This document shows, piece by piece, positions 44,645 through 45,040 of a stretch of DNA of 64,000 bases. This stretch comes from Pocillopora damicornis (Eukaryota), in the NCBI RefSeq assembly GCF_003704095.1, contig NW_020844944.1:124001-188000 (forward strand), in the 5' to 3' direction. A program made the position numbers and the translations under genes. The notes below the pieces were generated by a model. That model ran no database searches, was not told where the DNA came from, and saw only the letters and a program-made list of their open reading frames with translations. The first letter of the stretch is position 1, and each line of letters begins with the position of its first letter.

Positions 44645-45040
44645 TAATTCGGTCTGACGAAAAGGTGTACAAATTGAAAAGGTATACAAACAATCGCTCT
44701 AACGAAGGGCTAACGCTCGAAACGTCACCTTTTTTACCCTTTACGGTGGCTAATTTACGTTTTCAACTCAGTTGTTAACACTAAATTACCTATCTATTAA
44801 TTCGCTTTGACGGAAGGCTAACGCTCTAAGTGTCAGTTTCAGAAACTCTTTACGATGGCCAATTGGTATTATCAATTCAATTCATAAAATTAAATTCTCT
44901 TGTTATACCCCACCGAAGAGACACCACAGTTTCTTTGGTAACTTACGCTCTGACGAAGGCCTAACACTCGAAAAGTCGGCTTAAAAAAACTCTTTACGGA
45001 GGCCAATTAACATTAGCACTCAGTTAATAAAACTAAATTA
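44645..45040 (+). mobile_element. Tandem array of short repeats, each headed by a degenerate minimal type I hammerhead ribozyme motif (Penelope-like element / retrozyme-type)
   Basis: Units start at 44696, 44804 and 44947, with a remnant at 44652. Consensus GCT-CTGACGA-A-GGGC-TAAC-GCTC-GAAA-C-GTC-AGC = CUGANGA core, stem II, GAAA, minimal palindromic stem III, GUC cleavage triplet. Confidence 0.75.

What the first reader, a model, noticed from the sequence alone, without database searches (positions are those of the whole stretch)
44645..45040. Tandem minimal hammerhead ribozyme array (retrozyme / Penelope-type) hidden in intergenic DNA
Seen: three 34-nt motifs at 44696 (GCTCTAACGAAGGGCTAACGCTCGAAACGTCACC), 44804 and 44947 (GCTCTGACGAAGGCCTAACACTCGAAAAGTCGGC), spaced 108 and 143 nt. 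Each is followed by the same ~70-100-nt body, and a solo truncated copy sits at 39667. The consensus folds as a type I hammerhead: stem I GCT/AGC, CUGACGA, stem II GGGC/GCUC, GAAA, palindromic ACGU stem III, cleavage after GUC. Established: such minimal hammerheads occur in Penelope-like terminal repeats and in tandem non-LTR retrozymes, cleave as dimers and can release small circular RNAs. Inference: a relic of such an array; each copy here has at least one damaging change, so local activity is doubtful but the family may be active elsewhere.
Basis: partly seen in the sequence, partly recalled or inferred. Interest (0 to 1): 0.7.

Follow-up and report, generated by a model that had tools for sequence, protein, structure and literature searches.

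The report
Stacked dead Penelope retrotransposon ends
The three ribozyme-like repeats are decayed copies of the short non-coding end of a very common Penelope-type jumping gene in a coral genome, likely stacked by at least two insertions of different age and likely inactive; this is an ordinary relic of a known element, not a circle-making retrozyme array.

Summary
The three motifs are real, and the family's majority form is a textbook minimal type I hammerhead (538 exact copies in the genome). They are not a retrozyme array. [quoted passage not shown] The window's 'solo' copy at 39.67 kb follows the element's last codons and TATA box. Family copies occur singly or head-to-head; no true head-to-tail junction of intact copies was found in the assembly. 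The three window copies differ at 23-30% of positions and belong to a young and an old subfamily, so at least two insertions built the stack. All are damaged. One spliced contig per site places array and solo copy in introns, antisense, not intergenic. Across the family, 5' ends cluster about 30 nt downstream of a TATA box, not at the cut site; 22 of 22 head-to-head pairs join one long and one short arm. This fits two-site priming on uncleaved RNA (inferred). The scan reached that reading before on other genomes. Known kind; low interest.

The parts
44691..44791 (+). Copy 1: young-subfamily pLTR stub, short (tail-less) form, beginning at the family's common 5' end; hammerhead core C3 at 44699, G5>A at 44701, would-be cut after 44726, stem I pair broken at 44728
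   Evidence: (2/100 from nearest cluster)
44800..44947 (+). Copy 2: old-subfamily pLTR stub with tail (long form); core destroyed
   Evidence: (25/144 from nearest cluster); best match elsewhere about 80%
44946..45145 (+). Copy 3: old-subfamily pLTR stub; 13 core bases intact, stem II and palindrome broken; tail remnant with insertions to ~45145
   Evidence: (12/98)
44647..44668 (+). Very short stub of a further copy (CUGACGA at 44654), origin unresolved
44642..44651 (+). 10-bp direct repeat TATTAATTCG, left copy; candidate target-site duplication for copy 1 plus ~40 nt of filler (unproven)
   Evidence: sequence
44795..44804 (+). 10-bp direct repeat, right copy, overlapping the AT-rich 5' edge of copy 2
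   Evidence: sequence
39536..39806 (+). 5'-truncated 3' end of the parent Penelope-like element: last codons (..HGINERFSFN), spacer with TATAAA at 39641-39646, pLTR lacking CUGACGA (26-nt deletion), tail
   Evidence: E 8.4e-62; 9/133 from an intermediate subfamily
44390..46805 (-). Likely intron of a spliced minus-strand host transcript that contains the stack (ribozyme antisense to host RNA)
   Evidence: table 8 (run X14, record 3, 211 nt; RNA status guessed), (CT..AC on +)
35483..41579 (-). Likely intron of a spliced minus-strand host transcript that contains the 39.5-39.8 kb fragment
   Evidence: table 8 (run X15, oligo-dT RNA, record 8)

Best explanation
The three repeats are decayed copies of the hammerhead-bearing end (pLTR) of a Penelope-like retrotransposon, likely left by at least two separate insertions of different age into the same AT-rich spot and likely inactive. 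Shown: the repeat follows the GIY-YIG ORF of an RT+EN element; the copies belong to different subfamilies; each is damaged. Inferred for the family: a TATA promoter at the element's 3' end starts an RNA 5-11 nt upstream of the ribozyme core. The element's protein makes a staggered cut (13-14 bp) and primes reverse transcription at two fixed internal sites, about 100 and 160 nt from the RNA start. The cDNAs run to the 5' end of the uncleaved RNA and insert singly or head-to-head. Such stubs lack the promoter and decay neutrally. The ribozyme is likely held off by a hairpin that pairs its own core and would need protein or a partner to cut.
For: Parent element: 29 of 30 endonuclease loci carry the repeat just downstream, same strand (L042 read on its other strand, L049 the miss). 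L067 has RT (PF00078, E 1.1e-6) and GIY-YIG (PF01541, E 0.003) in one 431-aa frame; L037 has RT above cut-off. RT, EN and pLTR are collinear in 9 of 30 RT loci. LSKGLNFVP and DKG-type stretches in L063 (named from recall and PMC8557442 passages). Different ages: copy 1 is 2/100 from a young cluster; copies 2 and 3 are 25/144 and 12/98 from an old cluster; their 4 shared body changes are all diagnostic of that cluster. Not tandem: 64 head-to-head, 6 convergent, 3 direct among 73 neighbour pairs in 199 loci; the one junction hit has no upstream copy; one search found none. 5' ends: of 103 rows (100 places) picked by a motif 3' of the cut site, 42 start at -12..-3 and 23 at -2..+8 relative to C3; one place starts at the cut site. 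TATAWA at -38 in 14 of 19 readable spacers (30 loci examined, 9 not read, 2 false matches). 3' ends: 51 rows at +91..103, 51 at +142..162, 1 between; 207 of 233 in two bins in a differently selected set. Long+short arms in 22 of 22 scorable pairs and 50 of 64 with no long+long. Flanking repeats of 9 nt or more in 34 of 49 two-arm insertions, 21 of them 13-14 bp, against 0.4% of shuffled pairings. Per-copy decay equal in ribozyme and body (5.1 vs 5.3%; 9.2 vs 9.1%), while old and young consensuses differ at 0/38 ribozyme and 8/62 body positions, p=0.023. Literature: min-HHRs in pLTRs, mostly as single motifs (PMC4209133); head-to-head pLTRs, one-sided tail, TATA+Inr (PMC3846280); both-strand priming at two internal sites on unprocessed RNA in vitro (PMC11167929).
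Against: No full-length copy with a direct 5' pLTR and no tail-to-ORF junction was found. GIY-YIG scores lie under Pfam's cut-off (18-22 bits vs 22.6). Copy 1 has no clean adjacent target-site duplication; the 10-bp candidate needs 40 nt of unexplained filler. One-arm insertions rarely show one (5 of 32). Copies 2 and 3 share a subfamily and could be one event. The exact 5' position is partly set by microhomology with the inverted partner, and no cap-derived G was seen, so the start site is inferred only. The core-pairing hairpin (-12.3 vs -7.0 kcal/mol for stems I+II) is not significant against shuffles (z -1.53). The tail is also conserved (3/55), so conservation is not specific to catalysis. 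A short-read assembly can collapse tandem arrays, and one DNA run shows an unexplained joint from 44765 to 44693 at summed depth 1257 (table 5c; kind not shown). Loci were picked by similarity or were the first 100 listed places, not a random sample.
Confidence: 0.87

Rival explanations
1. Relic of a non-LTR retrozyme: a pLTR-derived unit copied from a circular RNA and inserted as a concatemer.
For: Three same-strand copies in a row. A 2026 preprint argues that retrozymes derive from pLTRs (10.64898/2026.07.22.740005, part 1 and passages). Arrays may be collapsed in the assembly; one unexplained joint in a DNA run. One other decayed direct stack was seen (L191).
Against: A concatemer gives units of one sequence, length and age; here they are 108 and 143 nt, two subfamilies, 23-30% apart. 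Unit borders fall at the usual stub ends, not at the cut site. No true head-to-tail junction among at least 538 intact copies. Coral retrozymes in print have canonical ribozymes in 220-245-nt repeats (PMC7229834 passages).
Confidence: 0.05
2. Local tandem duplication of one old stub, with later homogenisation of copy 1 by gene conversion from young copies.
For: Copies 2 and 3 share a subfamily; the TATTAATTCG-CUGACG context is repeated upstream of copy 1.
Against: Copies 2 and 3 share no private change in the body. Copy 1 has both ends of a typical young short stub.
Confidence: 0.05
3. The stack was kept by the host as a regulatory or self-cleaving intronic element.
For: It lies in a likely intron; copy 3 keeps the 13 core bases.
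Against: It is antisense to the host transcript, so the pre-mRNA would not carry the ribozyme. Damage fits neutral decay: copy 1 has G5>A, copy 2 a destroyed core, copy 3 broken stems. None folds better than shuffles (z 0.17 to 0.56).
Confidence: 0.03

Closest known systems
Minimal hammerheads in pLTRs of metazoan Penelope-like elements (Cervera & De la Pena 2014, PMC4209133; parts 1-2 of 4 read)
   Same: Type I topology, conserved core, extra base between 9 and 10.1, G10.1-C11.1, palindromic 15.2-16.2, mostly single motifs from truncated elements, some pairs on opposite strands.
   Different: Stem II is 4 bp and stem I 3 bp, shorter than in their Schistosoma families (7-8 and 4-5 bp). Their supplementary cnidarian alignments were not seen and may hold this very motif.
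EN+ Penelope-like elements with inverted pLTR and one-sided tail (Adineta vaga, PMC3846280 passages; Craig et al. 2021, PMC8557442 passages), Neptune-type linker
   Same: RT then C-terminal GIY-YIG, CX4CxxC linker, CCHH-type residues, head-to-head pLTRs, tail on one arm, TATA box, target-site duplications.
   Different: Tail about 55-60 nt rather than 30-40; duplications mostly 13-14 bp rather than 8-10. The fixed 5' end downstream of TATA favours a sense template over the antisense self-priming proposed in PMC3846280. Clade not tested by a tree.
Anolis Poseidon PAc in vitro (Frangieh et al. 2024, PMC11167929; parts 1-2 of 4 read)
   Same: Two internal RT start sites bounding the tail, both strands cut and extended, AT-rich targets, unprocessed RNA as template, ribozyme inactive without protein.
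   Different: They saw no strand difference in start site in vitro; here the two arms of one insertion always use different ends (22 of 22). Nothing biochemical was tested here.
Non-LTR retrozymes of corals (Cervera & de la Pena 2020, PMC7229834 passages; Li et al. 2026 preprint)
   Same: Type I hammerhead in a short low-GC repeat; relation to pLTRs.
   Different: Retrozymes have canonical ribozymes in homogeneous 220-245-nt tandem repeats and make circles; this family is minimal, dispersed or inverted, and tied to an ORF.

Membership tests
Minimal type I hammerhead (min-HHR), family majority form | Core C3UGANGA9, G12AAA15.1, U16.1-H17 | tested here: met
   538 exact copies of the intact 31-mer, reversed control 0; core intact in 25 of 48 young and 8 of 30 old copies
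Minimal type I hammerhead (min-HHR), family majority form | Extra base 9b, G10.1-C11.1 pair, palindromic 15.1-16.1 | tested here: met
   A at 9b, G-C, ACGU; definition from PMC4209133
Minimal type I hammerhead (min-HHR), family majority form | Stem covariation | tested here: inconclusive
   No compensatory change inside this family (0/38 differences between subfamily consensuses). Other families in the genome have other paired stems II around the same core (L172, L188, L194, L196; 95 hits, control 1), read by eye and not homologous outside the core.
Minimal type I hammerhead (min-HHR), family majority form | Self-cleavage as dimer or with protein | not testable with these tools
   No assay; predicted lowest-energy fold pairs the core
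Minimal type I hammerhead, the three window copies | Intact core and stems | tested here: not met
   Copy 1 G5>A; copy 2 core destroyed; copy 3 stem II and palindrome broken
Rfam Hammerhead_1 (RF00163) | Match to the covariance model | tested here: inconclusive
   No hit in window 39-46 kb, in an intact copy or among 73 scored of 31546 genome candidates (whose controls also gave nothing); the model describes canonical ribozymes
EN+ Penelope-like element | RT and C-terminal GIY-YIG in one ORF | tested here: met
   L067 431-aa frame with PF00078 and PF01541, both slightly under cut-off; L037 RT above cut-off
EN+ Penelope-like element | Hammerhead-bearing pLTR 3' of the ORF | tested here: met
   29 of 30 EN loci; window 39536-39806
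EN+ Penelope-like element | Inverted 5'-truncated copy, one-sided tail, target-site duplication | tested here: met
EN+ Penelope-like element | Full-length or partial-tandem copy with direct 5' pLTR | tested here: inconclusive
   None among loci fetched; such copies are often lost from short-read assemblies (PMC8557442 passage)
Neptune clade | CX2-5CxxC linker and CCHH motif | tested here: met
   CARSRCKTC, then CTYC before the YIG motif and two later His, read from translations; definition
Neptune clade | Placement in an RT phylogeny | not tested
   No reference RTs at hand
Non-LTR retrozyme | Homogeneous head-to-tail repeats with a complete ribozyme in at least two consecutive units | tested here: not met
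   assembly collapse not excluded
Non-LTR retrozyme | Canonical helix I and loop 1-loop 2 contacts | tested here: not met
   Stem I 3 bp, minimal form
Non-LTR retrozyme | Expressed circular monomers | not testable with these tools
   All 24 runs offered are contigs, not raw reads

The most novel reading that the evidence does not exclude
The family's stubs are an in vivo footprint of coupled twin priming: one Penelope RNP primes the two nicked target strands at two different fixed sites of an uncleaved, promoter-started RNA (never the same site twice), and the ribozyme is switched off by a six-pair hairpin that sequesters its own catalytic core until the element's protein refolds it.
Probability: 0.5. 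Interest if true: 0.4.

Novelty: new member of a known kind. Interest (0 to 1): 0.2.

Why it matters
The locus itself is ordinary repeat debris; calling it correctly prevents a false retrozyme annotation. The family has some value as a natural record of how Penelope-like elements integrate, which is only partly known: fixed 5' ends next to a TATA box, two 3' ends, strict long+short pairing and 13-14-bp duplications can be tested directly in the published in vitro assay. The qualitative pattern is in print, and this scan noted it before in other genomes.

Tried and rejected
Rfam gave no hammerhead hit in the window, an intact copy or the genome: uninformative, as the model is for canonical ribozymes and its controls were silent. 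The loose descriptor gave 6 window hits against 3.06 expected, 10 of 100 shuffles reaching it: not significant alone. A retrozyme-type head-to-tail junction: one chance hit, otherwise none. Inserted copies starting at the cut site: one place of 100. A cap-derived extra G at the 5' end, a lead from earlier scan notes: not seen. A tail-to-ORF junction: no shared sequence beyond the tail among 114 long copies, none. PLE ORFs beside the other hammerhead families: none within 1.5 kb by tblastn. Expression: RNA contigs hold 55-57% of the element's sampled words, but contigs cannot show strand, ends or level and may include DNA or intronic read-through, so this is not used as evidence. A paper search for Penelope-like + twin priming + inverted gave 2 listings on other subjects (listings only); this is too narrow to claim that the strict long+short pairing is not in print. 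Supplements were not read; Fig. S3 of PMC4209133 and Fig. S1 of PMC7229834 may show this motif. Repbase and Dfam could not be searched.

Full report
Observation. A profile built from 67 genomic copies finds exactly four copies in the window, at E 3.9e-37 to 2.8e-22. A ~20-nt stub with CUGACGA sits at 44654. A 100-N gap lies 50 nt upstream. Three of the 24 sequencing runs' label types point to the host: several runs that hold the element are labelled coral metagenome.

The family. The first look found 2061 candidates for copy 1. The intact 31-nt ribozyme occurs 538 times exactly and a 27-nt body motif 771 times, reversed controls 0. The majority form meets the min-HHR description of PMC4209133: full core, an extra A at 9b, G10.1-C11.1, palindromic ACGU, a 4-bp stem II and a 3-bp stem I. 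Rfam does not model it.

It is a Penelope pLTR. Some copies are preceded by the end of a GIY-YIG ORF. Searching with that ORF end, 29 of 30 loci carry the repeat just downstream. Walking upstream gave RT motifs and an N-terminal region. L067 holds RT and GIY-YIG in one 431-aa frame, both a little under Pfam's cut-offs. A CX4CxxC linker and CCHH-type residues make it Neptune-like by the definitions in PMC8557442 (passages); no tree was built. No full-length copy with a direct 5' pLTR was found. The window's 'solo' copy is such a 3' end: 39536-39806 matches ORF end, spacer, TATA box, pLTR and tail at E 8.4e-62, with the CUGACGA part deleted.

It is not a retrozyme family. Among 73 neighbour pairs within 150 nt in 199 fetched loci (window's own left out), 64 are head-to-head, 6 convergent and 3 direct. 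A genome-wide pattern for either normal 3' end followed by an intact 5' end gave one hit, which has no upstream copy; a second junction pattern gave none. Limits: the assembly may collapse arrays, the patterns need exact matches, and a joint from 44765 to 44693 in one DNA run stays unexplained.

The stack. Clustering 263 copies puts copy 1 in a young group (2/100 differences) and copies 2 and 3 in an old one (25/144, 12/98); the 39.67-kb copy is intermediate (9/133). The window copies differ from each other at 22/96 to 30/99 positions. Copies 2 and 3 share four body changes, all diagnostic of their group, so they may be one event or two; copy 1 came later. The copy 2-3 junction is not repeated among the 40 best places. 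A perfect 10-bp repeat flanks copy 1 plus 40 nt, a candidate duplication that I could not prove. Each copy is damaged and none folds better than shuffles. Two spliced contigs put the stack and the 39.6-kb fragment in minus-strand introns, antisense to the ribozyme; this rests on one contig per site.

How the family likely works. I took the first 100 listed places of a motif lying 3' of the cut site, so the ribozyme was not selected for (103 rows, three counted twice). 5' ends: 42 at -12..-3 and 23 at -2..+8 relative to C3, 11 further upstream, 23 further downstream, 4 unreadable; one place begins at the cut site. TATAWA lies at -38 in 14 of 19 readable spacers. 3' ends fall in two groups, +91..103 and +142..162 (51 rows each; the motif sets +91 as the lower limit; the same two groups appear). 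All 22 scorable head-to-head pairs join one long and one short arm (one pair at a locus edge dropped). Two-arm insertions have flanking repeats of 9 nt or more in 34 of 49 cases, 21 of them 13-14 bp; one-arm insertions in 5 of 32; shuffled pairings 0.4%. These are shown. Inferred from them and from PMC11167929: transcription starts just upstream of the ribozyme, both nicked strands prime at two internal sites, and cDNAs of the uncleaved 5' end insert without their promoter. Consistent with this, copies decay at the same rate in ribozyme and body, while subfamily consensuses keep the ribozyme unchanged (0/38 vs 8/62, p=0.023; the tail is also conserved, 3/55). The intact ribozyme is predicted to pair its core with the bases across the cut site (-12.3 vs -7.0 kcal/mol; z -1.53, not significant). 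No cap signature was found, and the exact 5' base is partly set by microhomology.

Comparison and verdict. It works like, and by the tested features belongs to, the EN+ Penelope-like elements with min-HHR pLTRs (PMC4209133 parts 1-2; PMC3846280 and PMC8557442 passages; PMC11167929 parts 1-2). It fails the retrozyme tests (PMC7229834 passages; preprint 10.64898/2026.07.22.740005 part 1 and passages). Earlier notes of this scan on other genomes give the same twin-priming reading; I saw them after writing my own, and they are not independent evidence. New member of a known kind; interest 0.2.

Noticed in passing
L282, L286/L287, L288 at ~1490; L283, L284 at ~1500 (oriented loci): Three independent 5'-most body copies of the element start at the same base, before a GTAAG, a pyrimidine tract and TAG; two others start at that AG. 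This may be a retained 5' intron or a fixed template end.
   Followed up: partly
L172, L179, L188, L194, L196, L198, L199: Other min-HHR families in the same genome with different paired stems II, some with a GT insertion in stem III; no PLE ORF within 1.5 kb by tblastn with this family's protein.
   Followed up: partly
L191:1470-1600 (minus strand); similar text in L190, L192: Another decayed direct stack of the repeat, with a short truncated unit before a longer one; may be a small old subfamily with a duplicated ribozyme.
   Followed up: no
window 44765 to 44693 (table 5c, run X23): Unexplained joint at summed depth 1257 (single-copy DNA about 100); no such head-to-tail junction in the assembly.
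   Followed up: partly
window 1-6615: Inverted repeat with arms of about 2.2 kb at 86-98% identity, holding frames with VWC/TILa (2319-2924) and uromodulin-like D8C (4675-5229) domains; recent inverted duplication or foldback element.
   Followed up: partly
window 13958-16735 (+): Single 926-codon frame for a class C GPCR (ANF_receptor, NCD3G, 7tm_3), apparently intronless.
   Followed up: partly
window 9609, 17038, 39065, 42474, 43673, 49665-50412, 55393-57652: A second abundant dispersed repeat family in both orientations (D1, D3, D6-D8, I4, I7-I12); not identified.
   Followed up: no
window 47930-51556 (-) and 32994-41756 (-): Spliced host transcripts seen in RNA contigs; the exon pieces scanned gave no Pfam hit. 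The first continues beyond 47930 into sequence not in 31000-48100.
   Followed up: partly
window 58718-58935: Degenerate 25-nt tandem repeat, six or more copies (D2, D19).
   Followed up: no
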